From assembly GCA_041937185.1 (NCBI GenBank), contig CP166621.1:2196571-2260570 (forward strand): a DNA stretch of 64,000 nucleotides. The letters run 5' to 3'. The position numbers and the translations under genes were made by a program. How positions within the stretch are numbered: the stretch's first letter is position 1; each line of letters opens with the position of its first letter. The DNA comes from Leptolyngbya sp. BL-A-14 (GTDB lineage Bacteria > Cyanobacteriota > Cyanobacteriia > Leptolyngbyales > Leptolyngbyaceae). Positions 4,613-53,782 of this stretch are shown here, piece by piece. Under the pieces are notes generated by a model, which saw only the letters and a list, made by a program, of their open reading frames with translations, made no database searches and was not told the DNA's origin.

Positions 4613-4745
4613 GGAGTTGGTAGAGAGAGGTAGAGGGATGAGGGATGAGAAACGGCCAAAGGCTGACCGTTGATAGCGAGGGAGAAGGCAGAAGAAAGGC
4701 TGAAGGCTAAAGGCTGAAGGCTAAAAACCTGACTCCTGATCACTG
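4613..4745. repeat. STRR-like heptamer tandem-repeat cluster between convergent genes
   Basis: GGTAGAG, GGATGAG, GGCTGAA, GGCTAAA and GGCAGAA heptamer runs. Confidence 0.8.
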
Positions 4746-8337: not shown

Positions 8338-8883
8338 TTAAAGATGCCATTTGACCGAGCAGCCGACAGGTTCCGTAGAGGTGGGTCGAATGGGAGCATT
8401 GATCAAAATCTGGGCGATCGCGTCTCGAAGATACGTCACTCGCACAGAATCGGGATCATTTGGGCTATCATCCACCGAGCCGCTGTAGCACAGCACGCCA
8501 TCTTGATTTAGGAGAAAAACGTGCGGAGTTTTCTCTGCGCCAAAGCTTTGGGCAACTTCTTGCGTCACATCCCGCAAGTAGGGAAAGTTGAGTTGATGCT
8601 CGGTTGCAAACCGCTTCATGTTCTCAAAGCTGTCATCTGGGTAACGATCGGCATCATTCGAGTTAATCCCAATCAGCGTTACGCTCTGATCTTGGAAATC
8701 TGCCTGGATCTGTTTGAGGCGATCGAGGTGCCGATGTACGTAGGGGCAGTGATTGCACATAAACACAACCGCTACCGCGCGAAATTGCTCCAAATACCGT
8801 GCCAGATGATGCACAGAACCGTCAATCCCTGGAATTTCGAAGTCGGGAGCGTAACTGCCAATCACGGTACTCATTTTTTCCAT
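8338..8883 (-). CDS. thioredoxin-fold thiol-disulfide oxidoreductase (redoxin/TlpA-like)
   Basis: CNHCPY CxxC motif in a thioredoxin-like 181-aa protein. Confidence 0.6.
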   Translation of the reverse strand: MEKMSTVIGSYAPDFEIPGIDGSVHHLARYLEQFRAVAVVFMCNHCPYVHRHLDRLKQIQADFQDQSVTLIGINSNDADRYPDDSFENMKRFATEHQLNFPYLRDVTQEVAQSFGAEKTPHVFLLNQDGVLCYSGSVDDSPNDPDSVRVTYLRDAIAQILINAPIRPTSTEPVGCSVKWHL

Positions 8884-9133
8884 GAAACAGAATCCTGGTA
8901 GAGCAGAGAGGAAGGGGCAAGGGAAGTTTTTGGTTGCTAGTTGAGAAAGGGAAGCAGAGAGAGGACGTTTTGAGCTTTGAGTTGAGGCAGTTTTTAGTGG
9001 TTGGTTTTTAGTTTTTAGGACTGGAACAAGCGCTGCTTTTCTCTCCTTCTAACAACTAACAACTAACAACCAAAAACCCTTCTGCCCTCTGCCTCCTGCC
9101 TTCTTCTAGCAACTAGCAACCCAAAACGAACAA
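8884..9133. repeat. composite STRR-like repeat element with conserved AGCGCT core
   Basis: The whole 250-bp spacer is heptamer runs (GTTTTTA, AACAACT, CCTCTGC) around the core GGAACAAGCGCTGCTTTTCTCTCCTTCTAA. Confidence 0.8.
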
Positions 9134-10045
9134 CTACATCCAGTTTTGTGCGATCGCCTGGTATCCAATTAGTTTATAGACCAATTTCGCTGCCGTAAAC
9201 TCTGACACCACAGAATCGGTAATGGGAGCCAACTCCATCACATCGCACCCGATGACCTGATGAGCCGCGAAGATACGTTGAATGAAGGTAAGCAGGCTAT
9301 ACCAGTTCAGGCCACCTGGTTCAGGGGTGCCAACTCCAGGAATTAGGGTAGGATCAATCCCGTCGAGGTCGATCGTGATAAAGACTTTCTCAGTTTTGAT
9401 ACTGGCAACGGCACGATCGATCCAGTCAGGCTGTATAACAATTTCCCGTGCTCGAAAGACAGCGAGTTGCTTCTCTTTAATCAAATCGGCTTCTTCTTTG
9501 CAAATGCTGCGAATGCCTACCTGAACCGTGGGCAACCCCATATCCACGATCCGTCGCATCACACAGGCGTGGTTGTGAATTGAGCCTTCGTATTCGTGAC
9601 GCAAATCGCCATGAGCATCAACCTGCACAACGGTGAAGGACTCCCCTGGATTCGCTTGCCGATACGCCTCGACAATGCCCGTTGTAATACTGTGTTCACC
9701 ACCCAGCGAGATAACAAATTTGCCGTCTGAGGCAAGCTTAAACACCGTTTCCTGCGTTGCGCGAAGCATTGCTTCAGAGGAAACTTTCTGACCGTTACGA
9801 GTATCGGCGATCGCATCGTGCGTATAGATACCCACCGGCCAAAGTTCGCGATCGAGTTCCTCGTCGTAATACTCGACTTGCTGCGACGCATCGAGAATGG
9901 CATCGGGGCCATGCTCACAGCCACGTCGATAAGTGGTAGTGGCTTCGTAAGGGATCGGCAGGATCACAACGTTAGCCTTGTCATAGGCCGCCGCGACATC
10001 CGGCCCTAAAAACGGTAGTGAAGAAACAGACGTTTGCACCAGCAT
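9134..10045 (-). CDS. speB: agmatinase / arginase-family ureohydrolase
   Basis: Arginase-fold Mn-binding motifs (GGEHSIT, VQVDAHGDL, ITIDLDGIDP); 303 aa. Confidence 0.8.
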   Translation of the reverse strand: MLVQTSVSSLPFLGPDVAAAYDKANVVILPIPYEATTTYRRGCEHGPDAILDASQQVEYYDEELDRELWPVGIYTHDAIADTRNGQKVSSEAMLRATQETVFKLASDGKFVISLGGEHSITTGIVEAYRQANPGESFTVVQVDAHGDLRHEYEGSIHNHACVMRRIVDMGLPTVQVGIRSICKEEADLIKEKQLAVFRAREIVIQPDWIDRAVASIKTEKVFITIDLDGIDPTLIPGVGTPEPGGLNWYSLLTFIQRIFAAHQVIGCDVMELAPITDSVVSEFTAAKLVYKLIGYQAIAQNWM

Positions 10046-15071: not shown

Positions 15072-15184
15072 GGGTGAGGGATGAGAGAAGAAGGCTAAAG
15101 GATGAAGGCTAAAGGCTAAAAAGCTGACCGCTGACTGCTCCTGAACTCAGAACTCAAAACTCAAAACTCCTCTCCCCTCGCCCT
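15061..15184. repeat. STRR-like heptamer repeat cluster
   Basis: GGATGAG, GGCTAAA, GAACTCA and AAAACTC heptamer runs between ycf19 and accC. Confidence 0.8.
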
Positions 15185-29789: not shown

Positions 29790-31394
29790 TTAGCATCCAG
29801 CCTCAATCTGCCTCACAGCCGTTAGCGCTGAGTAACTTACCCCTGCCGTTCCCTCACCGGGATGGGTTGAGTCTCCTACCAGCCAAAGGTTACGAATGGG
29901 TGTCCGGTTCGCAAAGCCAAAGGGACCAAACGTAGGTACCCGTTGACCAATGCCACCAACGATGCCCCGATCACGCCCCGTAAAGTGTGCAAACGTGCGA
30001 GGAGTCGCCGCTTCCACCAACAAAATCGTCTCGTCATTCAGGGTGAAGAATTGAGATAACCGGGCGATCGCTTCATCGGTATACCGCTGTTTGAGCAAGG
30101 CAAAAGAGTTAAGAGTTAAGAGTTTTGAGTTTTGAGTTTCAAGTTTAATCTTTTGCCTTCTGCCTTCTGCCTTCTGCCTTCTGCCTTCTACTTCCCCCTT
30201 TTCCCACCAAAGCCCCACATCCGTAAACGACGACGCAATAATCGTCGCCTTCCCCTCCGGTGCCCGACCATCACCCGGACGACTGACCGACACGAAGAGC
30301 GAGTTGTTTTCGCCGATCGGGCCCTCGTAGTCGTATAAAAATTGCAGATGAGGCGGACAGTCTTCAGGAAGCGCACGTTCATCTACGCCCAGATACACCA
30401 CAAACGCACCAGAACTCGGCGGCAGTTTCTCCACCCGTCGTTGGTAGCCGTTGGGAGCCTGGTCGCCCAGCAGTTGCATCAAATTCTGCACCGTTACATT
30501 TGCCACCACGTGGTCAACGGGTTCCGTCCAGCTTTCACCTGTTTTCTGGTTGCGGATCGTTACTCCCGTTGTTCGCCCTTTCTCAGTGTGAATCGCTTTC
30601 ACCGTGTGGCGCATGAGGAGCTTGCCACCATCTCGTTCTAAGGCAGCAACGAGGCGATCGCTCAACGCCTGCATGCTCCCGTGAAGGTGAAACAATCCCT
30701 GTGGCTCCTGAGAAACCCCTAAAGCTGTGGCTGCGTAGAGCAACGCCGTTTCTTCGGCGTCGACCTGAGAATAAAGCTTGAGTTGCAGATCAAGGAAGGT
30801 TCGTAGCCGTTGGTTGTCTGCCAAACCGTAGCCGCGAAGGGCATCTCCCACTGTCGAAAACGTATGCGGCAGCGTCAAAAGCGTATCGGGACGGACAGCC
30901 TTGGTTAATTGCCACAAATCCCACCCGTTGCGTGGCGGTAAGACTGGATCACGAGACTGAAACGCCCAGCTATGGCGAAACAGATCGGACAACAGTTGCC
31001 AGAAGGGTTCGCTGCCTGGAAATTGCCGTTGACGCTCAGCCTGCCATCGCTGCGGGTCGCGCCACACGTTAATGGGTGTGGTTTCTCCAGGCAAATAAAC
31101 GGCACAAGCAGGGTCGCAGTGCGTTGCAGCAGGCAGTTCAATCTCTAGCTCCGAGAAAATGCGGTGATGAATGCCGCCGGGTTCTAACCCTGCAACCTGA
31201 GTCGCACCCACATCAAAGGTAAACCCCTGCCGTTTAAAGGTCGAAGCACAACCACCCGGCACTAGCGCTTGATCCAGCATCAGCACTGAGTAGCCCCGAT
31301 GGGCCAGCAAAGCGCCTGCGGTCAGCCCGCCAATGCCTGCACCAATCACAACCACACGGGGAGAATGAGCACGATCGCCCTGTTTACCTGGCAT
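29790..31394 (-). CDS. phytoene desaturase (CrtI) family FAD-dependent oxidoreductase
   Basis: VVVIGAGIGGLTAGALLAHRGYSVLMLD dinucleotide-binding motif, GGCASTFKRQGFTFDVGA; contains an in-frame STRR-like insertion. Confidence 0.75.
   Translation of the reverse strand: MPGKQGDRAHSPRVVVIGAGIGGLTAGALLAHRGYSVLMLDQALVPGGCASTFKRQGFTFDVGATQVAGLEPGGIHHRIFSELEIELPAATHCDPACAVYLPGETTPINVWRDPQRWQAERQRQFPGSEPFWQLLSDLFRHSWAFQSRDPVLPPRNGWDLWQLTKAVRPDTLLTLPHTFSTVGDALRGYGLADNQRLRTFLDLQLKLYSQVDAEETALLYAATALGVSQEPQGLFHLHGSMQALSDRLVAALERDGGKLLMRHTVKAIHTEKGRTTGVTIRNQKTGESWTEPVDHVVANVTVQNLMQLLGDQAPNGYQRRVEKLPPSSGAFVVYLGVDERALPEDCPPHLQFLYDYEGPIGENNSLFVSVSRPGDGRAPEGKATIIASSFTDVGLWWEKGEVEGRRQKAEGRRQKIKLETQNSKLLTLNSFALLKQRYTDEAIARLSQFFTLNDETILLVEAATPRTFAHFTGRDRGIVGGIGQRVPTFGPFGFANRTPIRNLWLVGDSTHPGEGTAGVSYSALTAVRQIEAGC
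30098..30195. repeat. STRR-like heptamer array inside CDS (in-frame)
   Basis: AAGAGTT, GAGTTTT and CCTTCTG x5 runs; translated as [28 protein letters not shown] within the oxidoreductase. Confidence 0.8.
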
Positions 31395-31596: not shown

Positions 31597-32943
31597 GTGA
31601 AGCTACCCATCGAAGGGCACTGCATGACTTCAACCCTCATCAAATCCACGGCTCATAAACTAAATGCGCCAACACTGCATCGGCTCCCTAACGGCTTGAC
31701 GATCGTCGCCGAGCAGATGCCCGTCGAAGCAGTCAATCTAGATATCTGGCTTAATGTCGGTTCTGCGGTTGAAGCAGACAACATTAACGGGATGGCGCAC
31801 TTCCTAGAGCACATGATCTTCAAAGGCACTGCGCAACTCCAGAGCGGCGAATTTGAGCGCCGGATTGAGCAACGAGGAGCGGTAACCAACGCGGCCACCA
31901 GTCAGGATTACACTCACTACTACATCACGACAGCACCGAAGGATTTTGCAGCGCTAGCCCCCTTACAACTGGATGTTTTGCTCAATGCGAGCATTCCTGA
32001 TGATGGGTTTGAACGCGAACGTCAGGTGGTTTTAGAAGAAATTCGGCGATCGCAGGATAACCCTCGTCGTCGCACCTTTCAGCATGCCACTGAGTTAACG
32101 TTTGATCGACTTCCCTATCGCCGTCAGGTGTTAGGTCCCACCAACGTTATCGAGCAGCTCACGGCTCAACAAATGCGGGATTTTCACCAGCATTGGTATC
32201 AGCCAACTGCGATGACAGCCGTTGCCGTTGGTAATTTACCTGTTGATGAATTGATCCGCATTGTTGAAGAGGGGTTTGAGCAAACTGTTAGCCGTCAGTG
32301 GCCAAGGGGCACTCAATTGCCCGCACCCCACAACCCACAACCCACACCTACACCCCACACCCCACACCCTGAGTCCCCCTTTCAGCACATTGTGCGCCGT
32401 GAATTGGTTGATGCAAGCCTTCAGCAAGCACGACTGGTGATGATCTGGCGCGTGCCAGGGTTGAATGATTTGCAGCAGACTTATGTCCTGGATGTCCTGG
32501 CTTCTGTATTAAGTCACGGTCGCGCGACTCGTCTGGTGCAAGATTTGCGAGAACAACGGGGACTCGTATCGAGCATTGCTGCCAGTAACATCACCTACCG
32601 TCATCAGGGTGCCTTTTACATTTCAGCGCAGTTGCCTGTAGAAAATCTTGATCGAGTAGAGGCGGCGATCGTCCAGCACCTTCGCACACTACAAACAGAG
32701 TTGATTAGCGACGCAGAAATCGCCCGCATTCGGACTCGTGTGGCCAACCATTTCGTCTTTGGCAGCGAAACGCCCAGCGATCGAGCGGGTCTCTACGGCT
32801 ACTACCAAACTCTGGTGGGTGACGTCTCAGCAGCGCTTGACTATCCGAAGCTGATCCAGGCACTGGATGCCGAAGCGGTCAGGACAGCCGTGCAGACCTA
32901 TCTTTCACCCGAAGCCTATGCGGTGGTTACGATTAAGCCGTGA
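31597..32943 (+). CDS. M16 family zinc metallopeptidase (pitrilysin-like processing protease)
   Basis: Inverted zinc-binding motif HFLEHMIFKGT (HxxEH); 448 aa; internal P/H/T-rich segment encoded by CCCCACA/CACAACC repeats. Confidence 0.85.
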   Translation: MKLPIEGHCMTSTLIKSTAHKLNAPTLHRLPNGLTIVAEQMPVEAVNLDIWLNVGSAVEADNINGMAHFLEHMIFKGTAQLQSGEFERRIEQRGAVTNAATSQDYTHYYITTAPKDFAALAPLQLDVLLNASIPDDGFERERQVVLEEIRRSQDNPRRRTFQHATELTFDRLPYRRQVLGPTNVIEQLTAQQMRDFHQHWYQPTAMTAVAVGNLPVDELIRIVEEGFEQTVSRQWPRGTQLPAPHNPQPTPTPHTPHPESPFQHIVRRELVDASLQQARLVMIWRVPGLNDLQQTYVLDVLASVLSHGRATRLVQDLREQRGLVSSIAASNITYRHQGAFYISAQLPVENLDRVEAAIVQHLRTLQTELISDAEIARIRTRVANHFVFGSETPSDRAGLYGYYQTLVGDVSAALDYPKLIQALDAEAVRTAVQTYLSPEAYAVVTIKP

Positions 32944-32944
32944 A

Positions 32945-33025
32945 GGAAGTTTTTAGTGGTTAGTTTTTCGTTGTTAGATCAAGATAGCAATCTAACAACG
33001 AAAACCCAACAACCAATGACTTTCC
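32945..33025. repeat. STRR-like repeats with embedded 12-bp-stem hairpin (32968..33001)
   Basis: GTTTTTAG, GTTAGT, AACAACG runs; perfect inverted repeat TCGTTGTTAGAT ... ATCTAACAACGA. Confidence 0.7.
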
Positions 33026-33889
33026 ATGTGGAACCAAATTGCTGCACACATTAGTCAGGCCACAGGAACGCCCTTTCAAGGAAGCGATCGCCGCTCGGTG
33101 GGGGGCGGTTGTATCAATCAAGGCTATCGGCTAGCTGATGACAACATCGCCTATTTTGTCAAACTTAATCAAGCGTCAGAGCTTGGGATGTTTGAGGCCG
33201 AAGCGGTAGGGCTACAGCAAATGCAACAGACCGGCACCATTCGGGTGCCAACGCCTATCTGCTACGGCGCTGAAGGCGGCAGTGCTTACATTGTGCTGGA
33301 ATGGCTGACCTTGGGACGAGGTAATGAGCGATCGTGGCAGCTTATGGGCCAAAAGCTTGCAGCCCTGCATCAGGCGAATGTAGCCGACAAATTTGGGTGG
33401 GAGCGCAACAATACGATCGGCTCCACTACCCAAATCAACACCTGGACGGCTGATTGGATCACTTTTTGGGTAGAGCATCGGCTCAGCTACCAGCTCAAGC
33501 TTGCCGAGCGTCGGGGTGGTCACTTTCCCCTACAAAACCAACTGCTAGAAGCAGTGCCCCACCTGTTAGTAGGACACACACCGCAACCATCATTGGTGCA
33601 TGGTGATTTGTGGTCAGGCAATGCGGCTGTCACAGAGGCAGGTGAACCGGTTATTTTTGATCCAGCCACGTATGTGGGCGATCGAGAAGTTGATCTGGCG
33701 ATGACCGAACTCTTTGGTGGTTTTCCAGCCAGTTTCTATCAGGGATATAGCCAGGTCTTACCGATCGAGGAGGGCTATCAACAGCGCAAAACGCTCTACA
33801 ACCTCTATCACATTCTCAATCACTTCAATCTTTTTGGTGGCAGCTATGAAGCACAAGCCAATCGGATGATGAACCAACTGCTGAAGTAA
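33026..33889 (+). CDS. fructosamine kinase family protein (protein-ribulosamine 3-kinase-like)
   Basis: 287 aa; FN3K-family segments (YFVKLN, LVHGDLWSGN, FDPATYVGDREVDLAMTELFGGF). Confidence 0.85.
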   Translation: MWNQIAAHISQATGTPFQGSDRRSVGGGCINQGYRLADDNIAYFVKLNQASELGMFEAEAVGLQQMQQTGTIRVPTPICYGAEGGSAYIVLEWLTLGRGNERSWQLMGQKLAALHQANVADKFGWERNNTIGSTTQINTWTADWITFWVEHRLSYQLKLAERRGGHFPLQNQLLEAVPHLLVGHTPQPSLVHGDLWSGNAAVTEAGEPVIFDPATYVGDREVDLAMTELFGGFPASFYQGYSQVLPIEEGYQQRKTLYNLYHILNHFNLFGGSYEAQANRMMNQLLK

Positions 33890-35662
33890 GGTTCTTTTCT
33901 GAATTTGGTGATCAAGGTTTGGAGTGATATTTGGCTCGGCAGGAACCGTTTCAACTGGCTAAAAGCACCCTTTTTTGCAAAAGGTCAAAACCAGCCCGAC
34001 CGTACATTTGCCGCTTGAGCATCTTCAGCCGATTGATTTGCCCTTCCACTTGTCCATTGCTCACTGCTAACGTCACGCCTGCTTTGACCGCCTCATAATC
34101 CTCCTGCAAACTCTTGGCAAAGTTTTGAAACTGTTTGATCTTGCTGCAACTGGCTTGCTCCAGCCAGGGGTCAAGCTGCTGGGGCGACCGTTGTCGAACC
34201 AACGCCGCAAATTGCTGAGCGAGAGTAATCGCTGTTGCTAACGCAGGATGCTGCTGTAACTCGATAAGCAACGGTTCATCCTCAATGGCTTGCTGCTGGG
34301 ATGGTTTGAGTACCAGCCAGGCAGCGCGACGGGCACTCAAAGGGGGTTGCTTTGCTTCGCTGCCGGCAAGAGCTGGTCCTCGCCCCTCTGAGGTGCTTAA
34401 CTGTTGCCGTTGCGCTTGACGCAGTTGATGGGTATATTTGGCAACGGTTTGATAGGTCCCCTGATAGCCCTGCTGCTGAATGTCCTCAAACAATTGCTTC
34501 GTCTGACGTTGCCCAGTGTGCCATTGCTCGTATAAGTAGGATTTGTAGGGAGTCAGGATGCTAGGACGGGAACGCCGCCGTGGCGATGGCTGCCATTCGG
34601 GAAAACTGGGAGCCGCCAAGTAGGTAAAAACAGTCCGTTCACCCATGCCTAAATGATGTGCAATATCGAGTACCTGGTAGCCCTGCTGGCGCAGTTTGTG
34701 CACCTGCTCGTAGTTCGCCAATCGTCTTGCCCGCCGTTGCTGCGCTCGTTGTTGCTGCGCCGTTGGCGGTTTGGGTGGAACTACCAGCGGTTTGCCTAAG
34801 GCTCGATGATAAGCGAGGTCTACGACTTTGAGCGCATCACTTTGCGTGGCTAGAAAACGCTCTAGGACTTCCGCCAGATTTTGCAGCAGATGGAAGCGGT
34901 CAGCGACCTGAATCGCTGCCGGTGCGCCTTGCGTCATGCCTTGCTTGTACGCCTTGGAGCGATCTCGCGACAGCACTTGCACACCAGGATGCTGTTGGAG
35001 CCAGGCGGCTAAAGTGTTCGCTTCTCGATCTTTGAGCAACGCGATCGGGTGGTGCTGATCGAGGTCAACCAGGATCGTGCCGTAGCGTTGCCCCTTGCGA
35101 AAGGCGAAATCATCGACGCCTAAAGTTTTAGGGGTCGTCATTGTGGGTAAGGTTTGTCGTGCCACGAGTTGCAACAACGGATTGAGGCTAACCCTGTGCC
35201 CCAACCGTCGGCTCAAGCGGGTGCCGGCCGCGCCGCCTAAGGCGAGTCCAATGGCGGTCAAACAGGCTGCCAAACGGCAGGTGCGTCTTGCCCACGGCAG
35301 GGTGACTTGGGGTAAGCGCTCGGTGAAGATGCGCCGTTGGCAGCCAGCCTTGAGGCAGAAAAACTTCCGCACTTGCAGGCGCAGGGTAACGGTGTAATCG
35401 ATACAGGGCAGATCTTGTAGGGTTCGCTCATAGCGACTGTGAATGCGATGGGTTGCTGACTGGCACAGCGGACAGTGGGCAGCAGATTGGCTGCTTGAAA
35501 CCGTAAGAGTTAGTTGTTTATCGTTCGTAGCGAAGGACCAGTTTTCGAGTCGAAGTAATGCCTGATTCGGCAACAGATGGTGCAGGAAATCCACTACTGC
35601 TTAAGCGTGAAATAGGTACACCTTGATCCTGCCGTAAGATCACCAAATTCAGAAAAGAACCT
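33890..35662 (-). mobile_element. ISL3-family insertion sequence, apparently intact
   Basis: 24-bp perfect terminal inverted repeats GGTTCTTTTCTGAATTTGGTGATC (33890..33913 and reverse-complement 35639..35662); 8-bp direct repeat TGAAGTAA at 33882..33889 and 35663..35670; a single transposase ORF. Confidence 0.85.
33951..35594 (-). CDS. ISL3 family transposase
   Basis: N-terminal zinc-finger (CPLCQ ... HSRYER), DDE region, and ISL3-typical C-terminus NGQVEGQINRLKMLKRQMYGRAGFDLLQKRVLLAS. Confidence 0.9.
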   Translation of the reverse strand: MDFLHHLLPNQALLRLENWSFATNDKQLTLTVSSSQSAAHCPLCQSATHRIHSRYERTLQDLPCIDYTVTLRLQVRKFFCLKAGCQRRIFTERLPQVTLPWARRTCRLAACLTAIGLALGGAAGTRLSRRLGHRVSLNPLLQLVARQTLPTMTTPKTLGVDDFAFRKGQRYGTILVDLDQHHPIALLKDREANTLAAWLQQHPGVQVLSRDRSKAYKQGMTQGAPAAIQVADRFHLLQNLAEVLERFLATQSDALKVVDLAYHRALGKPLVVPPKPPTAQQQRAQQRRARRLANYEQVHKLRQQGYQVLDIAHHLGMGERTVFTYLAAPSFPEWQPSPRRRSRPSILTPYKSYLYEQWHTGQRQTKQLFEDIQQQGYQGTYQTVAKYTHQLRQAQRQQLSTSEGRGPALAGSEAKQPPLSARRAAWLVLKPSQQQAIEDEPLLIELQQHPALATAITLAQQFAALVRQRSPQQLDPWLEQASCSKIKQFQNFAKSLQEDYEAVKAGVTLAVSNGQVEGQINRLKMLKRQMYGRAGFDLLQKRVLLAS

Positions 35663-37141: not shown

Positions 37142-37456
37142 TTAGTAGCGACGACCGCCGCCACCACCACTGCCACGGTTGTTTCCACCCCAACCGCCAG
37201 AAGAACCGCGTTCTTCACGGGGTTTTGCTTTGTTCACTTTTAAGTCACGTCCCATCCACTCAGCGCCGTCAAGGGCTTCAATGGCAGCCGCTTCTTCTTC
37301 TTCGGTGCCCATTTCTACAAAGGCAAACCCGCGCATGCGACCAGTTTCGCGATCGGTGGGTAGTTGAACTCGATTAACAGTACCGTACTCCTCAAAAGCT
37401 TGCTTCAGATCTTCCTGAGTAACCTGGTACGAAAGGTTACCGACGTAAATTGACAT
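37142..37456 (-). CDS. rbp: RRM-type RNA-binding protein with glycine-rich C-terminus
   Basis: RNP2 (IYVGNL) and RNP1 (RGFAFVEM) motifs; [18 protein letters not shown] tail; located just upstream of rpsU as in the known cyanobacterial rbp-rpsU arrangement. Confidence 0.88.
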
Positions 37457-37601
37457 GGAGTGTCTCCAAATTTCAGAGTGTGTGAGAGTTAAATTCGGAG
37501 AGACGCTTGTCACGGAACAAAAACGAATTACACAGCCGAAGATAATCCTGTAGGCAAACTATAGCACAGGGCTAAAAAACCGTTTTGCCAGCCCTTGTAG
37601 T

Positions 37602-47368: not shown

Positions 47369-47477
47369 GGAGAGGGATAAAGGATAAAGGATGAAGGATA
47401 AAAAGCTGATCGCTGACTTTTCTACTCCCTACTCCTTACTCCCTACTCCCTGCCCTCTGCCCTCTGCCTTCTCTCCC
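47369..47477. repeat. STRR-like heptamer repeat cluster
   Basis: GGATAAA/GGATGAA runs, CTCCCTA x3, CCCTCTG x3. Confidence 0.8.
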
Positions 47478-48896
47478 CTACTCCCTCACCGCCATTTTCT
47501 CTAATGCCGTTTGCAGGTCTTGCGTTAGGGTTGTCACGGCTTGTTTGGCGTTGCGTCGGTTGCCTTCGTAATCTTGCCAGCGATCGGACACTGAAAGCGG
47601 TTGCCCGATCGTCACAATGGCTTTTTGCTTGCCAAGTTTCGGGCGATCGAGGGGTGTGCCGCCTTTAATGCGGGCAATCATATCCCACATCAGCAGGGCT
47701 GTTTCAGCAAAGCGTTCAGCCGTCGGCTTTTCGAGCACGTACTTACCTGTAACGGCAACAAAACTTTCAACGACGCGCATATGCCAGAGGCGTAGATCGG
47801 CTTCTTCAGCCAGTCGATCGGCAAGTCCATGTTCCAGCAGTGAAACCTCCTCAATCGGCTTCAGATCTTCTCGATAGATGTAGTCCCAACCCGCTTGCTC
47901 CAACCGCCGACAGCGATCGATCACGCTACCTTTGGGCTGCAAGTTGAAATACTGCTCTGCGACTTTTAATGCGGCATCCATCAGCGCGTTGAGGCGAGTG
48001 GCAAACGCTTCGTGAGAAATTGGTGCGTCAAGGTCTGCTGGTGGTGCAGTGCTGCCGTCCTTTACGGTTGCTAGCGGCTGGTGATAGAAACGGCTATAGA
48101 ACTGCTCCATCACCGAGAGTAAGTGTTCACCCAGACGATACAGCCGTTTGTAAAGAAGTGGCTCTGCAGTTGCATCTGCGTGACGGATCGGGCTACTGGC
48201 TAAGCCTGTATCGAGTTCCAGAGTAGTTAAAAGCTGATCGATCGCGCTCCAGGGTGGCGAAATGTAGTGATATTGAATCCCGATCGGCACGACGAGAACT
48301 GTTTCCGATCGATTGGCTTTGTGCAGATCTTCGGCACACCAAAAGGCAAGTTGGCTAAGCCCAGGTTCTAGCGGGCTCACAATTTCGGTATGCCCGTTGG
48401 TCGCCCCTTCGGGAGCAGCAGCCAGTGGCAGCGAACCGTTTGCAAATAGATCGCGGGCAGAACGTAACCCAACGCGATCGACTTTGCCCCGATGAATTGG
48501 CGTACCGCCCAGTCGTGAATAGAGCCAACCCATGAGCGAACCCGCCCAGAGTGGAATGCCGCGATCGTAAATAAAATGGGCATGCAGTGGACGGTTGAGC
48601 GCAACCTTTTGCTGACGCGCAACCTTCGGCACGAGGCGAGCCAGCAAATAAGCCAGCACAAAGGGATCGGTCGCACTCGGATGCCGAAACGCCATGAGAA
48701 AGCGAATGTTACCCGCCTGAAATTGACGATACAGATCGACCAACACCTCAACGTTTTCGGCTTCAACCCGCCGAATCGATGTCCGCGATCGCATAATCAA
48801 CGGCAACAGCCATTGCAACACTTGAACAACGGTCATGCTGAGCTGAGGCGGAATGAATTCTAGCGGTGGTTGAACTTGGCGAATGAGGCGAGGCAA
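47478..48896 (-). CDS. lysophospholipid/glycerol-phosphate acyltransferase (PlsC-like) family protein
   Basis: HX4D motif (FRHPSATD) and PEG motif (AAPEGATNGH); 472 aa with a long C-terminal extension. Confidence 0.65.
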   Translation of the reverse strand: MPRLIRQVQPPLEFIPPQLSMTVVQVLQWLLPLIMRSRTSIRRVEAENVEVLVDLYRQFQAGNIRFLMAFRHPSATDPFVLAYLLARLVPKVARQQKVALNRPLHAHFIYDRGIPLWAGSLMGWLYSRLGGTPIHRGKVDRVGLRSARDLFANGSLPLAAAPEGATNGHTEIVSPLEPGLSQLAFWCAEDLHKANRSETVLVVPIGIQYHYISPPWSAIDQLLTTLELDTGLASSPIRHADATAEPLLYKRLYRLGEHLLSVMEQFYSRFYHQPLATVKDGSTAPPADLDAPISHEAFATRLNALMDAALKVAEQYFNLQPKGSVIDRCRRLEQAGWDYIYREDLKPIEEVSLLEHGLADRLAEEADLRLWHMRVVESFVAVTGKYVLEKPTAERFAETALLMWDMIARIKGGTPLDRPKLGKQKAIVTIGQPLSVSDRWQDYEGNRRNAKQAVTTLTQDLQTALEKMAVRE

Positions 48897-49115
48897 GGGA
48901 AGTCTCCTTGGTGGTGGTGGAAGGCAGGAGGCAGAAGGCAGGAGGCAGAAGGCAGAGGGCAGAAGGCAGGAGGTTTTTGGGTTGTTAGCGGTTAGTGGTT
49001 AGAAGGAGAGAAAATGCAGCGCTTGTTCTAGCTCAAAACTCAAAACCAACCACTCAAAGCTCAAAACTCTCTAGCGAAGCGGCACGAAGTGCTACTCAAA
49101 ACTCTCTTTCGCTCT
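48897..49115. repeat. composite STRR-like repeat element with conserved AGCGCT core (reverse orientation)
   Basis: GGCAGAA/GGCAGGA runs, GTTAGTG runs, core TTAGAAGGAGAGAAAATGCAGCGCTTGTTCT, AAAACTC runs. Confidence 0.8.
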
Positions 49116-50471
49116 CTAAAAGATAAACATCAGCTTCAGTTTCCACGTTTCCGCCTCGCGGATCAGTTCGATTTGGCAGATAAATTCACGAAAGTAGAAG
49201 CGGCGTTCAGGTTCGGAAAGGTCGAGCCAAAACTGGGGAATAGAGACAGTTTGAGCGATCGCTTGCAAATTAACGGGCGGTAATTGTGCCAGTTTGCTTT
49301 GGAGCACAGCTATTTCAGTGCGGAGTTTGTAGGCGCGGAGGTCGGCGGTTTCTTGATCAAGCACACCACTGGTTACCAACGGAGGCAGTTGGGTCAAGAT
49401 TGCTTGCTTCGCGGCGATCGCACCGTTGATGCCTTGCTTTATGGTGCCCACATCCGGTAGTGCAACATCGGCGACTGCACGTGGTAAATCTTCGCAGATG
49501 CGCTCAATGGTTTGCTGAAGAATGGCATCGTACTCGATCGCCTTGCATTTGGGTGCTCGGGAACATTGAGTGGGTCGCAGATAGAGGTATTCGCGATCGC
49601 GGCGAGGGGCTGAAACACGCGTCACGGTCATGGGCGATCGACATTCACTGCACACCACTAAGCCTGCTAGAGAACGCGGTGCGCTGGCAGTGCGAGGCGG
49701 TAGCTGACGGTTGCGTCTTAGCAGACGATCGACCTGCGCTGCTTCTTCGCGAGAGATGATGGGAGTATGGGTATCGCTGATCAGTTCGCCGTTTTGATAG
49801 GCTGTATCGCCCCGATAGACAGGGTTCGTTAGCCACCGGTGCCCCGTAGAGACGGCAATCTTTTTGCTGTACTTTTTGGCTAAGTAACGCACCGCTTCAC
49901 GGAGGGAACCGTAGAGCAAAAATTGATCGAAAAAGTCTTTGACAACGGGAGCCGTGCTGCGATCGACCACATAACGAGCTTTGCTGCGACGATAGCCGTA
50001 GGGCGCTTTCCCAGGTGGCGGTAAAGCATTGACGCGATTCTGGGCGTGCCCTTGACGAATGCGGCGGCTGCGTTGTTCGCGCTGCACTTGCTGCAACAGC
50101 CTGAGCAAATCTGCTTGAAGGTCGGCTCCTTTCAAAAGGGGCTGCTCGGCCAGAGTTGGATGTATTGGGCTAGTTGCTTGCTCTGTCACAATGAGACGGA
50201 CGCCCAGCGTTTCCAGTTCAGCCAGGCGATCGCCGACTGCCTGAACAGAATCGCCCAATTCTTCCACGCGCCGAATGAGCAGATAATCCGCTGGTTCTGC
50301 CTGACAGTCTTCGAGAAGCTCTTGCCACTGCTGCCGAGCGATCGCACCTCTCTTGGGCACGGTTGCGATGGCTAAATCCTGGTAGACGCGATCGACCTCC
50401 CAACCCCACAGGCTCTGATCAGGTGTCGGTTCTAACAACGGATCACTGTAGAGATAGGCAATAATTTTCAT
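49116..50471 (-). CDS. large serine recombinase family protein with divergent catalytic motifs
   Basis: N-terminal resolvase-like domain (KIIAYLYSDP; ADYLLIRRVEELGDS), recombinase domain and zinc-ribbon (CSEC ... C ... C); start overlaps the upstream GNAT stop by 4 nt. Confidence 0.75.
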   Translation of the reverse strand: MKIIAYLYSDPLLEPTPDQSLWGWEVDRVYQDLAIATVPKRGAIARQQWQELLEDCQAEPADYLLIRRVEELGDSVQAVGDRLAELETLGVRLIVTEQATSPIHPTLAEQPLLKGADLQADLLRLLQQVQREQRSRRIRQGHAQNRVNALPPPGKAPYGYRRSKARYVVDRSTAPVVKDFFDQFLLYGSLREAVRYLAKKYSKKIAVSTGHRWLTNPVYRGDTAYQNGELISDTHTPIISREEAAQVDRLLRRNRQLPPRTASAPRSLAGLVVCSECRSPMTVTRVSAPRRDREYLYLRPTQCSRAPKCKAIEYDAILQQTIERICEDLPRAVADVALPDVGTIKQGINGAIAAKQAILTQLPPLVTSGVLDQETADLRAYKLRTEIAVLQSKLAQLPPVNLQAIAQTVSIPQFWLDLSEPERRFYFREFICQIELIREAETWKLKLMFIF

Positions 50472-51478: not shown

Positions 51479-52783
51479 TTAGCTGTGCATAATCTCCATC
51501 AAGCAGTCGGCAATCCTTTTGGCGGCTCCGGGTGTGCCCATGCGACGATGACCGTTTTCGGCGATCGTTTGTAGCGCATCGGGATTTTGCAACAGCGATT
51601 GGATCACAGCCGCCACACGATCGGGTTCCTTCACCAACAGAACGGAGGCACCTAATAAACGAGTTTGTGCTTCAGCAAAACGAGGCGTAAACTGCGGACC
51701 TTTGCCTGGAAGGATGATCGCAGGTTTACCCAAGCCGACAAACTGTTCCGTTGCGGTGCCTGCCATCGCGATCGCTACATCGGCTCGATGCAAACACTCT
51801 GCAAACCGTCGTTGCGCCAACACCAGCGTCGATTTGCGATCGCCCAAGCCCACCGTGTAGGAATCTTCCGTCAACTGCTGCCAGCGATACGCCATCAATG
51901 CCTTGTGCAGCAAGTCTACATCCAGTCCGGGCGCGATCGCGGCTAAGAGCGTGAGCGGTCGTGACATCTGGGCAATCATCCCATTCACCGCTTGCAAAAT
52001 CGTTTCCCAATTGGCGTAAGCCTCCGGTGGACGGGAACCGGGAATGAGAGCGATTGTTAAGGCTAAAGGCTGAAGGCTGAAGGCTAAATCTTGACTTTTA
52101 TCCTTTATCCCTAAGCCTTTATCCTTCTCTTCCCACTCCAGCCCATCCATCATTGGATTTCCCAAATCAAACGCTGGAATGTTTCGCCGTCGAAGGCTCG
52201 TTGCCGTGATGGTGTCTCTAGGGAACACCGCTTTGCAGTGTAGATGGCTCATCAGCCACCGCTCCCACGGAAGGTAAATACACCCCGTCCAGCGCTCAAG
52301 GCGATCGTCCCACCAGGAGTCACGCGGCAACCAGCCCCCCTCATCGCGCAGATAGTATTCTGACTTCGCCGTACCCACAAACGCGTAGGGAAGCCCACTG
52401 AGACGGGCGAAGAGGAGGGGGACGATATCGCCAACCGCGAGGATGAGGGAGTGGGGAGTGGGGAATGGGGAGTGGGGAGCGGCGGTTTCCTTTGCCCAGG
52501 CTTTGATGGCGCGGAGTTGTGCCAGCGTGAGTTGAAGTAACCCACCTCGAATGTCGCGCGCAAGCTGCCGCCCATCCTGATAGATGAAACCACCAGACGG
52601 CATGGTCTTGACGGAGCCAATGAGGGAAATGCCATTGTCGATATAGGCATGACCTTCACCCACGATCGGCAAAGCGGCAAGTTCTGGTGGATTGGGCTGT
52701 TGCTGAAGTTCACGCAAGATGCGGAGGGCGATCGCATCTTCACCATGACCGTTGCTAAGACAGAGTACGCGCATGAGCAGCAA
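51479..52783 (-). CDS. lipid-A-disaccharide synthase-related protein (LpxB-like glycosyltransferase)
   Basis: 434 aa; N-terminal LSNGHGEDAIA motif of the LpxB-related family; carries two in-frame heptamer-repeat insertions. Confidence 0.65.
   Translation of the reverse strand: MLLMRVLCLSNGHGEDAIALRILRELQQQPNPPELAALPIVGEGHAYIDNGISLIGSVKTMPSGGFIYQDGRQLARDIRGGLLQLTLAQLRAIKAWAKETAAPHSPFPTPHSLILAVGDIVPLLFARLSGLPYAFVGTAKSEYYLRDEGGWLPRDSWWDDRLERWTGCIYLPWERWLMSHLHCKAVFPRDTITATSLRRRNIPAFDLGNPMMDGLEWEEKDKGLGIKDKSQDLAFSLQPLALTIALIPGSRPPEAYANWETILQAVNGMIAQMSRPLTLLAAIAPGLDVDLLHKALMAYRWQQLTEDSYTVGLGDRKSTLVLAQRRFAECLHRADVAIAMAGTATEQFVGLGKPAIILPGKGPQFTPRFAEAQTRLLGASVLLVKEPDRVAAVIQSLLQNPDALQTIAENGHRRMGTPGAAKRIADCLMEIMHS
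52056..52137. repeat. STRR-like heptamer array inside CDS (in-frame)
   Basis: GGCTAAA, GGCTGAA x2, GGATAAA-type runs; translated as EWEEKDKGLGIKDKSQDLAFSLQPLA inside the LpxB-like ORF. Confidence 0.8.
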
Positions 52784-52997: not shown

Positions 52998-53483
52998 TTA
53001 GTGGGCTGGAGATTGTTTGGGTGCGGGTGCTTCTAACGTTCCTGTAAAGGGGATTTCGCCAGGAGCGGAGCTTAAGCTGAGCGTACCGTTGAGAGATTGT
53101 TGCGCGATCGTCCCCTGAATTTTGACATCGCCCTGGCATTTAGGTAGGTAGCTGGCATCTCCCTGTAAGGTTAACCGTTGATTCTCCCAATTTCCCGTCA
53201 TCGAAGGACGTTCTGTTGCCCGTTTTTCCAGCGCTTCTGCAGTCTCAGACGCAAGCAGCGATCCGGTTAAATAAATCCCAGACTGCTGCACCAGTAGAAT
53301 TAACTGCTCAGACTTCAAGCATCCTGGCAAAGCCTGGGCTGGAATTTGGTAGCGACCGTCGATTTTTTGAGCCGCTTTCAGATTTGCTTCGCCGTAGGCT
53401 GTCACAACGCTAAACAAAGCTACAACAACGGCGATCGCGCCACCGTAGAAACTGAGAGATTTGAGATTGAAGTGATTGCCCAT
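52998..53483 (-). CDS. hypothetical secreted/membrane-anchored protein
   Basis: Start at ATG 53483 (MGNHFNLKSLSFYGGAIAVVVALFSVV signal/TM); the upstream part of the ORF is translated GAGTTTT repeats. Confidence 0.5.
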   Translation of the reverse strand: MGNHFNLKSLSFYGGAIAVVVALFSVVTAYGEANLKAAQKIDGRYQIPAQALPGCLKSEQLILLVQQSGIYLTGSLLASETAEALEKRATERPSMTGNWENQRLTLQGDASYLPKCQGDVKIQGTIAQQSLNGTLSLSSAPGEIPFTGTLEAPAPKQSPAH

Positions 53484-53782
53484 GAAAAATAGTTTTGAGT
53501 TTTGAGTTTTGAGTTTAGTCAGTTTTAAAGCCTTCGGCATGGCTTCGCTAGAGGGGTTGGTTTTCGTTTTTAGCTGGAACCAGCGCTACCTTTTCTCTCC
53601 TTCTAAGCACTTTTCTTGAATGCCCTCTCTTGTATGCCTGAAAGGCTTTAGGGCTATACCACTAACGACCAAAAACCCTTCTGCCTTCTGCCTTCTGCCT
53701 TCTGCCTTCTGCCTTCTGCCTTCTGCCTTCTGCTTTCTGCCTTCTGCTTTCTGCCTTCTGCTTTCTGCCTTCTCCCCCATCC
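53484..53782. repeat. composite STRR-like repeat element with AGCGCT core plus a TTCTGCC array of about 15 copies
   Basis: GAGTTTT x4; core GGAACCAGCGCTACCTTTTCTCTCCTTCTAA; (CCTTCTG)n/(CTTTCTG)n array from 53677 to 53782. Confidence 0.85.

What the first reader, a model, noticed from the sequence alone, without database searches (positions are those of the whole stretch)
8960..9110. Repeat element with a unique AGCGCT-containing core present at three or more loci
Beyond simple heptamer runs, three spacers share a unique core of about 31 bp. The copy at 8884..9133 reads GGAACAAGCGCTGCTTTTCTCTCCTTCTAA. The copy at 53484..53782 reads GGAACCAGCGCTACCTTTTCTCTCCTTCTAA. The copy at 48897..49115 has the reverse complement of AGAACAAGCGCTGCATTTTCTCTCCTTCTAA. 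In each case the core is flanked on one side by GTTTTTAG/GTTAGTG runs and on the other by AACAACT and then CCTTCTG runs. A conserved non-repetitive core flanked by ordered heptamer arrays suggests a discrete mobile or functional unit rather than slippage alone. It could be a MITE-like element, a small RNA gene or a protein-binding module.
Basis: seen in the sequence. Interest (0 to 1): 0.6.

Follow-up and report, generated by a model that had tools for sequence, protein, structure and literature searches.

The report
Dispersed intergenic repeat in cyanobacterial heptamer spacers
A roughly 100-base non-coding repeat occurs three times in gene spacers of the cyanobacterium Leptolyngbya sp. BL-A-14 but not in its relatives, and it looks like ordinary selfish or neutral repeat DNA rather than a gene.

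Summary
The 30-31-nt core occurs exactly three times in the window: 9023-9052 (+), 53576-53606 (+) and 48999-49029 (-). None is expected by chance.

Homology extends to a ~100-bp unit with 83-86% pairwise identity. In copy 1 the unit is a clear imperfect palindrome with the core at its apex. It always lies between a (GTTTTGA)n and a (CCTTCTG)n array, in spacers between co-directional genes. One copy is inverted relative to transcription.

Only ~23 nt (CTGGAACAAGCGCTGC.TTTTCT) is truly unique. CTCCTTCTAA is heptamer scaffold also found in relatives, and AGCGCT occurs 39 times in the window.

The window comes from Leptolyngbya sp. BL-A-14. The unique core is absent from:
- 11 orthologous spacers of related Leptolyngbyaceae;
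- ~150 kb of their DNA;
- pattern scans of species-representative genomes, metagenomes and viral contigs, and BLAST against plasmids.

The spacers are mosaics. Copy 2 carries a clean 45-nt insertion that a relative has in a different spacer. It also carries a 28-nt module found in Nostoc and Stanieria plasmids.

There is no promoter, terminator, Rfam match or covariation.

Best reading: a lineage-specific, non-coding dispersed repeat module (MITE/SDR-like) copied among heptamer-repeat scaffolds. This is ordinary for filamentous cyanobacteria, so interest is modest.

The parts
8884..9133 (+). Copy 1: the whole spacer between the redoxin/AhpC-TSA gene (8338-8883, -) and the agmatinase gene (9134-10045, -). 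It is a nested palindrome, with outer arms 8926-8957 / 9096-9127 and inner arms 8990-9018 / 9049-9077.
8986..9085 (+). Copy 1, conserved ~100-bp unit (hairpin arms plus apex core).
   Evidence: Covariance model R1 scores 109.9 bits. RNA fold gives -26.2 kcal/mol, z=-3.2 on the + strand and z=-1.9 on the - strand.
9023..9052 (+). The unique part is 9021-9043; 9043-9052 (CTCCTTCTAA) is scaffold.
53484..53782 (+). Copy 2: the whole spacer between a hypothetical gene (start at 53483, -) and the cation:proton antiporter gene (53783-55978, -).
53550..53684 (+). Copy 2, conserved unit, interrupted by a 45-nt insertion.
   Evidence: R1 scores 55.8 bits; alignments A2 and A4
53576..53606 (+). Copy 2, 31-nt core GGAACCAGCGCTACCTTTTCTCTCCTTCTAA.
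53613..53657 (+). Module 3: a clean 45-nt insertion (TTCTTGAATGCCC...GGGCTAT) in the right arm of copy 2. Together with its scaffold flanks it is 87% identical over 70 nt to L048 9800-9868. That site is in a related species, in the spacer orthologous to copy 3.
53526..53553 (+). Module 2: TAAAGCCTTCGGCATGGCTTCGCTAGAG, to the left of the unit in copy 2. It is also present in a relative (L043, 25/25) and in plasmids of Nostoc, Aulosira and Stanieria.
53677..53773 (+). (CCTTCTG)x13.9 tandem array flanking copy 2.
48897..49115 (-). Copy 3: the whole spacer between the lysophospholipid acyltransferase gene (47478-48896, -) and a large-serine-recombinase-like gene (49116-50471, -). The element is inverted relative to copies 1 and 2.
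48966..49068 (-). Copy 3, conserved unit.
   Evidence: R1 scores 100 bits; 110 bp at 86% identity to copy 1
48999..49029 (-). Copy 3, 31-nt core AGAACAAGCGCTGCATTTTCTCTCCTTCTAA.
49069..49093 (-). Variant of module 2 in copy 3 (AGCACTTCGTGCCGCTTCGCTAGAG).
32945..33028 (+). Coreless twin hairpin. It has the same kind of arms (AGTTTTTAGTGGTTAGTTTTTCGTTGTTAG / CTAACAACGAAAACCCAACAACC) but a short unrelated loop where the core would be. It fills the spacer between two + strand genes.
   Evidence: R1 scores 33.9 bits, E=1.4e-6, with 26 model positions replaced by 9 nt

Best explanation
The element is a non-coding, lineage-specific dispersed repeat of Leptolyngbya sp. BL-A-14.

Anatomy (shown). The unit is ~100 bp. 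In copy 1 it is a clear imperfect palindrome. Its arms are built from GTTTTTAG / CTAACAAC heptamer-like units, and its apex carries a ~23-nt unique sequence (CTGGAACAAGCGCTGC.TTTTCT). The unit sits at the junction between a (GTTTTGA)n and a (CCTTCTG)n array, inside intercistronic spacers.

History (part shown, part inferred). Related species have spacers of similar heptamer vocabulary at the same loci, so I infer that such scaffolds pre-date the core. The unique centre is present only in BL-A-14. It was therefore copied from one scaffold to others within this lineage.

Mechanism (inferred). I think the most likely route is homology-guided copying: ectopic gene conversion, or template switching at hairpins. 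The near-identical heptamer arms would serve as the homology, with no dedicated transposase. The same process would shuffle the other small modules (2 and 3) among spacers.

Function (inferred). The element is presumably co-transcribed with its flanking genes and can fold into an imperfect stem-loop. I infer no sequence-specific cellular function. It is selfish or neutral repeat DNA of a kind typical of filamentous cyanobacteria.
For: - Three homologous copies, far beyond chance.
- All three lie in spacers between co-directional genes of unrelated function, and one is inverted.
- The source genome was identified by exact protein look-up.
- The unique core is absent from every orthologous spacer examined. 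These are six for copy 1 (L018, L021, L022, L023, L042, L043), three for copy 2 (L044, L046, L047) and two for copy 3 (L048, L049). Most of them keep the same heptamer vocabulary.
- The core is absent from ~154 kb of relatives' DNA. It is also absent from the pattern scans of 185,579 species-representative genomes, metagenomes and viral contigs, and from BLAST against plasmids.
- Coreless hairpins with the same arms exist in the window (32945-33028) and in Stenomitos frigidus (L046 15221-15296).
- Similarity between copies runs beyond the core into the arms and the flanking arrays. One example is the 16/16 match GTTTTGAGCTTTGAGT, as expected for conversion tracts.
- The spacers are mosaics. 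Module 3 is a sharp 45-nt insertion at the same scaffold point in copy 2 and in a relative's non-orthologous spacer. Module 2 is shared with distant cyanobacteria.
- No promoter or terminator, no Rfam family.
- The only transposase in the window is an ISL3 element whose 24-bp terminal repeats are unrelated to the unit.
Against: - Only 64 kb of the source genome could be read, so copy number, a possible master copy and a possible cognate enzyme are all unknown.
- The copies are 14-17% diverged, so they are not a recent burst.
- A 17-nt stretch (CTTTTCTCTCCTTCTAA) is invariant in all three copies, which could mean constraint. However, its last 10 nt are scaffold.
- Gene conversion was not shown directly. 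The sharp boundaries of module 3 look more like insertion than conversion.
- Hairpin potential is strong only in copy 1. The whole spacers of copies 2 and 3 fold no better than shuffles (z=+1.2 to +1.9).
Confidence: 0.45

Rival explanations
1. It is a true miniature mobile element. It would be either a MITE or a Nostoc-type 'small dispersed repeat' (SDR). A dedicated enzyme or an RNA-templated mechanism would insert it at a preferred point of heptamer scaffolds: a hairpin apex, or between two tandem heptamers.
For: - Presence or absence at 11 orthologous spacers.
- The unit in copy 1 has 29-nt inverted arms that are 83% complementary. It sits in the centre of an older, outer palindrome.
- The same arms occur with a different short loop at 32945-33028.
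- Module 3 is a clean 45-nt insertion, flanked by a repeated A(A/C)(A/C)ACT heptamer, at the same scaffold point in two species.
- The unique core is ~23 nt, inside the 21-27-nt range I recall for SDRs.
Against: - No target-site duplication could be defined.
- Inverted arms are weak in copy 3 (20 nt, 75%) and undetected in copy 2.
- The arms are ordinary scaffold heptamers, not element-specific ends.
- No matching transposase or RAYT gene is in the window.
- The copies are 83-86% identical rather than near-identical.
Confidence: 0.25
2. It is a functional cis-element of intercistronic regions. Either the stem-loop tunes processing, stability or translation of the flanking messages, or the apex sequence is a binding site for a protein.
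For: - All three copies lie between co-directional, probably co-transcribed genes.
- The hairpin drawn from copy 1 is 85% pair-compatible across the three copies, against 41-59% for slid controls.
- Copy 1 folds well (z=-3.2).
- A 17-nt stretch is invariant among otherwise 14-17% diverged copies.
- Experiments in Nostoc suggest that heptamer repeats can modulate expression (bioRxiv 10.1101/2022.06.06.494920).
Against: - One copy is inverted relative to transcription.
- The flanking genes are functionally unrelated.
- The core is absent from all orthologous spacers in relatives, so it is not needed for those operons.
- There are no compensatory changes.
- The pair-compatibility figure is biased, because the structure was derived from copy 1.
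- The hairpins of copies 2 and 3 are not better than shuffles.
Confidence: 0.2
3. It is a small RNA gene present in three paralogous copies.
For: A conserved non-repetitive sequence with some hairpin potential, in intergenic DNA.
Against: - No promoter-like or terminator-like site in or next to the conserved unit on either strand.
- No Rfam match, even at permissive thresholds.
- No covariation.
- The units fill spacers between co-directional genes and would be read through by their transcription.
- There are no homologues in other cyanobacteria.
Confidence: 0.04
4. There is no common origin. The similarity would be convergence, produced by slippage of the same heptamer vocabulary.
For: The flanks and the last 10 nt of the 'core' are indeed scaffold motifs that recur independently.
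Against: - The ~23-nt centre is non-periodic and shared with 1-3 substitutions and a one-base length difference.
- 0.00-0.03 matches are expected by chance.
- Copy 1 versus copy 3 gives E=4e-20.
Confidence: 0.03

Closest known systems
Small dispersed repeats (SDR1-8) of Nostoc punctiforme and relatives (Elhai et al. 2008, Genome Res 18:1484). The paper is not held in the library. My description rests on memory and on citing papers PMC5861425 and PMC4390886.
   Same: - A very short unique sequence (~23 nt here, 21-27 nt there).
- Dispersed in intergenic DNA.
- Embedded in hairpin or MITE-like contexts and next to tandem heptamer repeats.
- Present or absent at orthologous sites.
- No known enzyme.
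   Different: - The host is a Leptolyngbyaceae. PMC5861425 states that Elhai et al. found no SDR-like repeat outside Nostocaceae.
- Only three copies were seen, and they are 83-86% rather than near-100% identical.
- All three sit in the same scaffold context rather than in varied contexts.
- Sequence relationship to SDR1-8 could not be checked.
Bacterial MITEs and imperfect-palindrome intergenic repeats: Nezha in Anabaena/Nostoc, ERIC/IRU in enterobacteria, Correia/NEMIS in Neisseria, RUP in pneumococcus (my own knowledge).
   Same: - A ~100-bp non-coding imperfect palindrome.
- Located in intergenic, often intercistronic positions, in either orientation.
- Able to fold as a stem-loop in read-through transcripts.
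- Lineage-specific.
   Different: - No defined terminal inverted repeats distinct from the surrounding repeats.
- No target-site duplication.
- No related IS found.
- The arms are made of the host's generic heptamer vocabulary.
STRR / long heptanucleotide simple-sequence repeats of cyanobacteria. Sources: Mazel et al. 1990 and Jackman & Mulligan 1995 ('highly variable but structured intergenic regions'), both from memory; Mrazek et al. 2007, as summarised in PMC4679880.
   Same: - The flanking arrays (GTTTTGA, CTAACAA, CCTTCTG and others) are tandem heptamers in intergenic DNA.
- CCTTCTG/CCCTCTG arrays recur in Nostoc, Trichormus, Calothrix and Stanieria plasmids.
- Orthologous spacers differ in sequence between close relatives but keep the same style.
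   Different: - The finding is the non-repetitive centre, not the arrays.
- The heptamer units differ from the STRR1-3 consensus sequences.
REP/REPIN elements mobilised by RAYT transposases (PMC3116915, PMC3733652).
   Same: Short extragenic palindromes organised as hairpin-forming doublets. They are reported in Nostoc punctiforme too.
   Different: - No GTAG- or CGTC-tagged 20-40-bp REP.
- No RAYT (Y1 transposase) gene in the window.

Membership tests
MITE | Short non-coding element in multiple dispersed copies | tested here: met
   A ~100-bp unit occurs three times in 64 kb, with no conserved ORF. The genome-wide count was not obtainable.
MITE | Element-specific terminal inverted repeats | tested here: inconclusive
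   Copy 1 has arms of 29 nt at 83% complementarity. Copy 3 has 20 nt at 75%. Copy 2 has none detected. The arms are generic scaffold heptamers that are also present in coreless hairpins.
MITE | Target-site duplication | tested here: inconclusive
   No duplication is identifiable at the unit's borders. The borders lie in tandem heptamers, which mask any duplication.
MITE | Related autonomous IS with the same ends | tested here: not met
   This was tested within the window only. The sole transposase is an ISL3 element (33890-35661) with terminal repeat GGTTCTTTTCTGAATTTGGTGATC, unrelated to the unit. The rest of the genome could not be tested.
MITE | Filled versus empty orthologous sites | tested here: met
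   The unique core is absent from 11 orthologous spacers in related species. These are different species, not strains, so independent spacer turnover is not excluded.
Nostoc small dispersed repeats (SDR) | 21-27-nt unit (as I recall the definition; paper not held) | tested here: met
   The unique part is 22-23 nt.
Nostoc small dispersed repeats (SDR) | Many near-identical copies in varied sequence contexts | tested here: not met
   There are three copies, with 1-3 substitutions and a one-base length difference in the unique part. All are in the same scaffold context. Genome-wide data are lacking.
Nostoc small dispersed repeats (SDR) | Association with tandem heptamers / hairpin contexts | tested here: met
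Nostoc small dispersed repeats (SDR) | Sequence identity to one of SDR1-8 | not testable with these tools
   The paper and its sequences are not held. BLAST of the core against cyanobacterial plasmids, including Nostoc punctiforme plasmids, gave no hit.
REP/REPIN | 20-40-bp palindromic REP with GTAG/CGTC head, in inverted doublets, with a RAYT gene | tested here: not met
   No such head is visible in the sequences read. No Y1-transposase domain is found among the ~50 ORFs of the window.
Small RNA gene | Own promoter and terminator; conserved structure with covariation; Rfam family | tested here: not met
   No promoter or terminator lies in the units. None of the pairs predicted by RNAalifold is compensatory, and the single double change under the copy-1 structure does not exceed shuffles. 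There is no Rfam match.
STRR / heptamer simple-sequence repeats | Tandem heptanucleotide arrays in intergenic DNA of cyanobacteria | tested here: met
   This is met for the flanks only. Examples are period-7 arrays at 8989-9018, 9049-9070, 9078-9104, 48920-48973 and 53677-53773. The core itself is not periodic.

The most novel reading that the evidence does not exclude
The unique core, the 45-nt module 3 and the 28-nt module 2 could all be examples of ultra-small (23-45 nt) site-specific mobile modules. They would home to fixed points of heptamer scaffolds: a hairpin apex, or the gap between two tandem heptamers. They would do so across cyanobacterial orders, since module 2 occurs in Leptolyngbyaceae, Nostocales and Pleurocapsales. 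This would extend the unexplained SDR phenomenon beyond Nostocaceae and imply a still unknown templated insertion mechanism.
Probability: 0.2. Interest if true: 0.6.

Novelty: new member of a known kind. Interest (0 to 1): 0.3.

Why it matters
The practical value is mainly for annotation. These spacers should be labelled as repeat elements, not as sRNA genes or regulatory sites.

If the modules prove to be truly mobile, this lineage would be a second, independent system for studying how sequences of only 20-45 nt are copied around a genome. That question has been open since the Nostoc SDRs were described. The clean 45-nt insertion shared between species at different loci would be a convenient handle for that work.

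The comparison of orthologous spacers also shows how quickly cyanobacterial intercistronic regions turn over while keeping a heptamer-based style.

Tried and rejected
- **Retrieving more of the source genome.** The exact-protein contig look-up found nothing on record, so no genome-wide census was possible.
- **Exact-pattern scans.** AGCGCT-N2-3-TTTTCTCTCCTTC in species-representative genomes gave 17 hits, none cyanobacterial. TTTTCTCTCCTTCTAANNACT in metagenomes gave 15 hits, mostly the reverse complement of ribosome-binding sites before ATG. The viral scan gave one chance hit.
- **BLAST of the units and of the bare core against plasmids.** Only the CCTTCTG-type arrays and module 2 hit cyanobacteria. 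The core hit nothing relevant.
- **Rfam**, at gathering and at permissive thresholds. This gave only meaningless weak miRNA-hairpin matches for copy 1.
- **Consensus folding.** RNAalifold finds no shared long hairpin and no covariation.
- **Whole-spacer folding of 12 orthologous spacers.** There is no consistent excess of structure, so 'structure conserved despite sequence turnover' was rejected as a general rule.
- **A conserved mini-ORF after the Shine-Dalgarno-like AAGGAG on the reverse strand of the core.** I rejected this by eye. Copy 3 has an ATG, copy 1 only a TTG, and copy 2 neither.
- **AGCGCT as a special palindrome or restriction-related signature.** Rejected: 39 copies, not depleted.
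- **A link between copy 3 and the adjacent serine-recombinase-like gene.** Rejected: that gene and its synteny are conserved in relatives that lack the core.
- **A relation to the ISL3 terminal repeats.** Rejected: 13 of 24 positions match by my own alignment of the two T-rich sequences (repeat sequence).
- **The array junction at 30104-30189 as an intergenic 'empty site'.** Rejected, because it lies inside an ORF.
- **Elhai et al. 2008** could not be read.

Full report
**1. The observation**

- GGAACAAGCGCTGCTTTTCTCTCCTTCTAA lies at 9023-9052 on the + strand.
- GGAACCAGCGCTACCTTTTCTCTCCTTCTAA lies at 53576-53606 on the + strand.
- AGAACAAGCGCTGCATTTTCTCTCCTTCTAA lies on the - strand at 48999-49029.

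The invariant 16-mer TTTTCTCTCCTTCTAA occurs exactly three times, against 0.03 expected from dinucleotide-preserving shuffles. A fuzzy search (up to 7 edits) and a covariance model find no fourth copy in the window.

- Copies 1 and 3 align over 110 bp at 86% identity, E=4e-20.
- A ~100-bp unit is shared by all three at 83-86% pairwise identity. Its coordinates are 8986-9085 (+), 53550-53684 (+) and 48966-49068 (-).
- The order of parts is the same in all copies: (GTTTTGA)n, left arm GGTTGGTTTT.AGTTTT.AG, core, CTCCTTCTAA, right arm CTAAC.ACC.AAAAACC, (CCTTCTG)n.

**2. Context and origin**

Each copy fills a whole spacer between two co-directional genes on the - strand.
- Copy 1 lies between agmatinase and a redoxin.
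- Copy 2 lies between a cation:proton antiporter and a hypothetical protein.
- Copy 3 lies between a large-serine-recombinase-like gene and a lysophospholipid acyltransferase.

Copy 3 is inverted relative to copies 1 and 2. The messages of loci 1 and 2 would therefore carry the reverse complement of the core, and the message of locus 3 the core itself.

Exact protein look-ups show that the window comes from the 7.19-Mb chromosome of Leptolyngbya sp. BL-A-14. This is a new species isolated from Enid Lake, Mississippi (PMC11370537). Its nearest relatives are Stenomitos and Tildeniella. The window has 61 HIP1 sites (GCGATCGC). The rest of the genome could not be retrieved.

**3. What is unique and what is scaffold**

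The window is full of period-7 tandem arrays drawn from a small vocabulary. Many spacers share these arrays without sharing the core. CCTTCTG/CCCTCTG arrays of the same kind occur in plasmids of Nostoc, Trichormus, Calothrix, Tolypothrix and Stanieria.

It also occurs, directly or as TTAGAAGGAG, in coreless spacers of relatives. AGCGCT is an ordinary hexamer here, with 39 occurrences against about 30 expected. The truly unique part is therefore ~23 nt: CTGGAACAAGCGCTGC(N)TTTTCT.

**4. Structure**

In copy 1 the unit is a good imperfect hairpin.
- Its arms are 8990-9018 and 9049-9077, 83% complementary, with the core at the apex.
- It is nested inside an older outer palindrome, 8926-8957 / 9096-9127.
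- As RNA it folds at -26.2 kcal/mol, with z=-3.2 on the + strand and z=-1.9 on the - strand.

The units of copies 3 and 2 fold no better than shuffles (z between -0.3 and -1.5).

I mapped the copy-1 structure onto the three-way alignment. 85% of cells pair, against 41-59% for slid controls. The structure was derived from copy 1, however, and there is no excess of compensatory change. RNAalifold finds no shared long hairpin.

Whole spacers of copies 2 and 3, and of several orthologues, are less structured than shuffles. Hairpin potential is therefore real for the unit in copy 1 but is not a demonstrated conserved property.

A coreless twin with the same kind of arms and a short unrelated loop lies at 32945-33028. 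Similar coreless heptamer hairpins occur in Stenomitos frigidus (L046 15221-15296).

**5. Comparison with relatives**

Synteny is conserved at all three loci, which let me read 11 orthologous spacers.
- Copy 1 locus: six spacers (L018, L021, L022, L023, L042, L043).
- Copy 2 locus: three spacers (L044, L046, L047).
- Copy 3 locus: two spacers (L048, L049).

Most have heptamer scaffolds of the same vocabulary. None has the unique core. The orthologue of spacer 2 in S. frigidus has its arrays in the opposite order relative to the genes.

The core is also absent from the following:
- ~154 kb of relatives' DNA;
- one genome for each of 185,579 species;
- JGI metagenomes;
- viral contigs;
- 72,556 plasmids.

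As far as the searchable data go, the unique core arose and was copied to at least three scaffolds within the BL-A-14 lineage.

**6. The spacers are mosaics of small modules**

Copy 2 differs from copies 1 and 3 by a clean 45-nt insertion (module 3, 53613-57). It sits between two heptamer units of the right arm. Together with its scaffold flanks, it is 87% identical over 70 nt to L048 9800-9868. That site is at the same scaffold point, but in the spacer orthologous to copy 3. L048 and L047 come from the same metagenome, whose contigs are attributed to Lyngbya sp. HA4199-MV5. In L047, the orthologue of spacer 2, module 3 is absent.

Copies 2 and 3 also share a second module.
- In copy 2 it reads TAAAGCCTTCGGCATGGCTTCGCTAGAG; copy 3 has a variant.
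- It is 25/25 identical at the end of a relative's contig, in the copy 1 orthologous spacer (L043).
- It recurs at 23-29 nt and 93-97% identity in plasmids of Nostoc flagelliforme, Nostoc sp. UHCC 0926, Nostoc sp. C052, Aulosira laxa and Stanieria cyanosphaera.

The finding is thus one instance of a general pattern: small discrete modules of different phylogenetic breadth, embedded in a heptamer scaffold.

**7. Function**

There is no promoter-like or terminator-like site in the units and no Rfam family. By eye, there is no conserved mini-ORF. The flanking genes have no common function. Orientation is not fixed.

Apart from the resident serine-recombinase-like gene next to copy 3, the only mobile-element gene in the window is a complete ISL3 insertion sequence with unrelated ends. 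No RAYT gene was found.

My best explanation is a non-coding, selfish or neutral dispersed repeat. It would have been copied among pre-existing heptamer scaffolds, most likely by homology-guided copying: gene conversion, or template switching at hairpins.

Three points favour this over transposition:
- similarity extends into the arms and the arrays;
- no target duplication or element-specific ends can be defined;
- no cognate enzyme is seen.

A true MITE/SDR-type insertion mechanism remains a serious rival, and the sharp edges of module 3 favour it. A cis-regulatory role is possible but unsupported. An sRNA gene and chance similarity are disfavoured.

**8. Relation to what is known**

The closest described systems are the following.
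- The small dispersed repeats of Nostocaceae, and their association with heptamer repeats and hairpin contexts (Elhai et al. 2008). That paper was not readable here, so this rests on memory and on citing papers PMC5861425 and PMC4390886.
- Bacterial MITEs and imperfect-palindrome repeats (Nezha, ERIC, Correia, RUP), from my own knowledge.
- Cyanobacterial heptamer simple-sequence repeats (STRR; PMC4679880).

The element works like these, but it cannot be filed as a formal MITE, REPIN or SDR member on the features tested.

PMC5861425 reports that no SDR-like repeat was found outside Nostocaceae. An SDR-like modular system in a Leptolyngbyaceae would therefore be a modest extension. I rate it a new member of a known kind, with modest interest.

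Noticed in passing
window 53526-53553 (+) and 49069-49093 (-); L043 1-25; L050 251-279; L051-L054: A 25-28-nt module (TAAAGCCTTCGGCATGGCTTCGCTAGAG) is shared with a related Leptolyngbyaceae (25/25). It is also shared with plasmids of Nostoc, Aulosira and Stanieria. In Nostocales it sits inside a longer conserved ~45-nt sequence, TTAGCGCAGCG...CGCTTAGAGCGAG. The only variable base in its GCC-TNC-GGC centre is the N. It has no Rfam match, and the sequence was not found in the text of any paper.
   Followed up: partly
window 53613-53657; L048 9800-9868: A clean 45-nt insertion (TTCTTGAATGCCC...GCCTGAAAGGC...GGGCTAT, a nested mini-hairpin) sits at the same scaffold point in copy 2 and in a relative's non-orthologous spacer. 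In both it is flanked by a repeated A(A/C)(A/C)ACT heptamer.
   Followed up: partly
window 15120-15136 and 47402-47418 (a diverged relative near 4720-4740): A second shared non-repetitive centre, AAAGCTGAYCGCTGACT, lies between other heptamer arrays: AAGGCTA/GGATAAA on one side and AACTCAA/CTACTCC on the other. There are 2 exact-pattern matches against 0.03 expected.
   Followed up: partly
window 32945-33028: A coreless heptamer hairpin fills the 82-bp spacer between the M16 peptidase gene and the fructosamine kinase gene. Its 3' arm runs right up to the ATG of the downstream gene.
   Followed up: partly
window 30104-30189 (in ORF 29790-31394); 52059-52126 and 52447-52479 (in ORF 51479-52783); 32320-32369 (in ORF 31597-32943): Heptamer arrays also lie in frame inside long ORFs. 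One adds ...[30 protein letters not shown]... to an amine-oxidase-family protein whose conserved C-terminus continues after the insert. This is reminiscent of the in-frame palindromic elements of Rickettsia.
   Followed up: no
window 33890-35661: A complete ISL3-family insertion sequence. It has perfect 24-bp terminal inverted repeats (GGTTCTTTTCTGAATTTGGTGATC) and an 8-bp target duplication (TGAAGTAA). It is inserted exactly at the stop codon of the fructosamine kinase gene.
   Followed up: yes
window 49116-50471: A large-serine-recombinase-like gene (Resolvase, Recombinase and Zn-ribbon domains) is conserved in synteny with the acyltransferase gene in relatives, so it is a resident gene. Its match to the Resolvase profile starts only at profile position 31, so the catalytic N-terminus may be degenerate.
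   Followed up: partly
window, whole: Several 6-bp palindromes are strongly avoided: GGCGCC 0 against 10.7 expected, CCGCGG 0 against 7.2, CCCGGG 0 against 6.1, GTCGAC 1 against 11.2. This suggests restriction-modification pressure. HIP1 (GCGATCGC) occurs 61 times.
   Followed up: no
L040 (Stanieria sp. NIES-3757 plasmid) 1-450; L041 (Nostoc sp. PCC 7524 plasmid) 220-445: Inverted GAGGGCAGAAGG / CCTTCTGCCCTCTGCC arrays bracket a cargo. In Stanieria the cargo is a gene annotated 'S23 ribosomal protein'. Inverted heptamer arrays flanking variable centres therefore occur across cyanobacterial orders.
   Followed up: no
L046 12197-12292 versus window 53484-53782: The orthologous spacer of Stenomitos frigidus has the GAGTTTT and CCTTCTG/CTAACCAC arrays in the opposite order relative to the flanking genes. 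This suggests either inversion of whole spacers or independent replacement.
   Followed up: no
window 37142-37513: A gene for a small RRM-type RNA-binding protein. It is a conceivable binder of single-stranded heptamer RNA, but this is pure speculation.
   Followed up: no
P0115: In one relative the agmatinase and the redoxin are called as a single 493-aa product (Arginase plus Redoxin/AhpC-TSA domains). The spacer that holds copy 1 in BL-A-14 appears to be absent or read through there.
   Followed up: no
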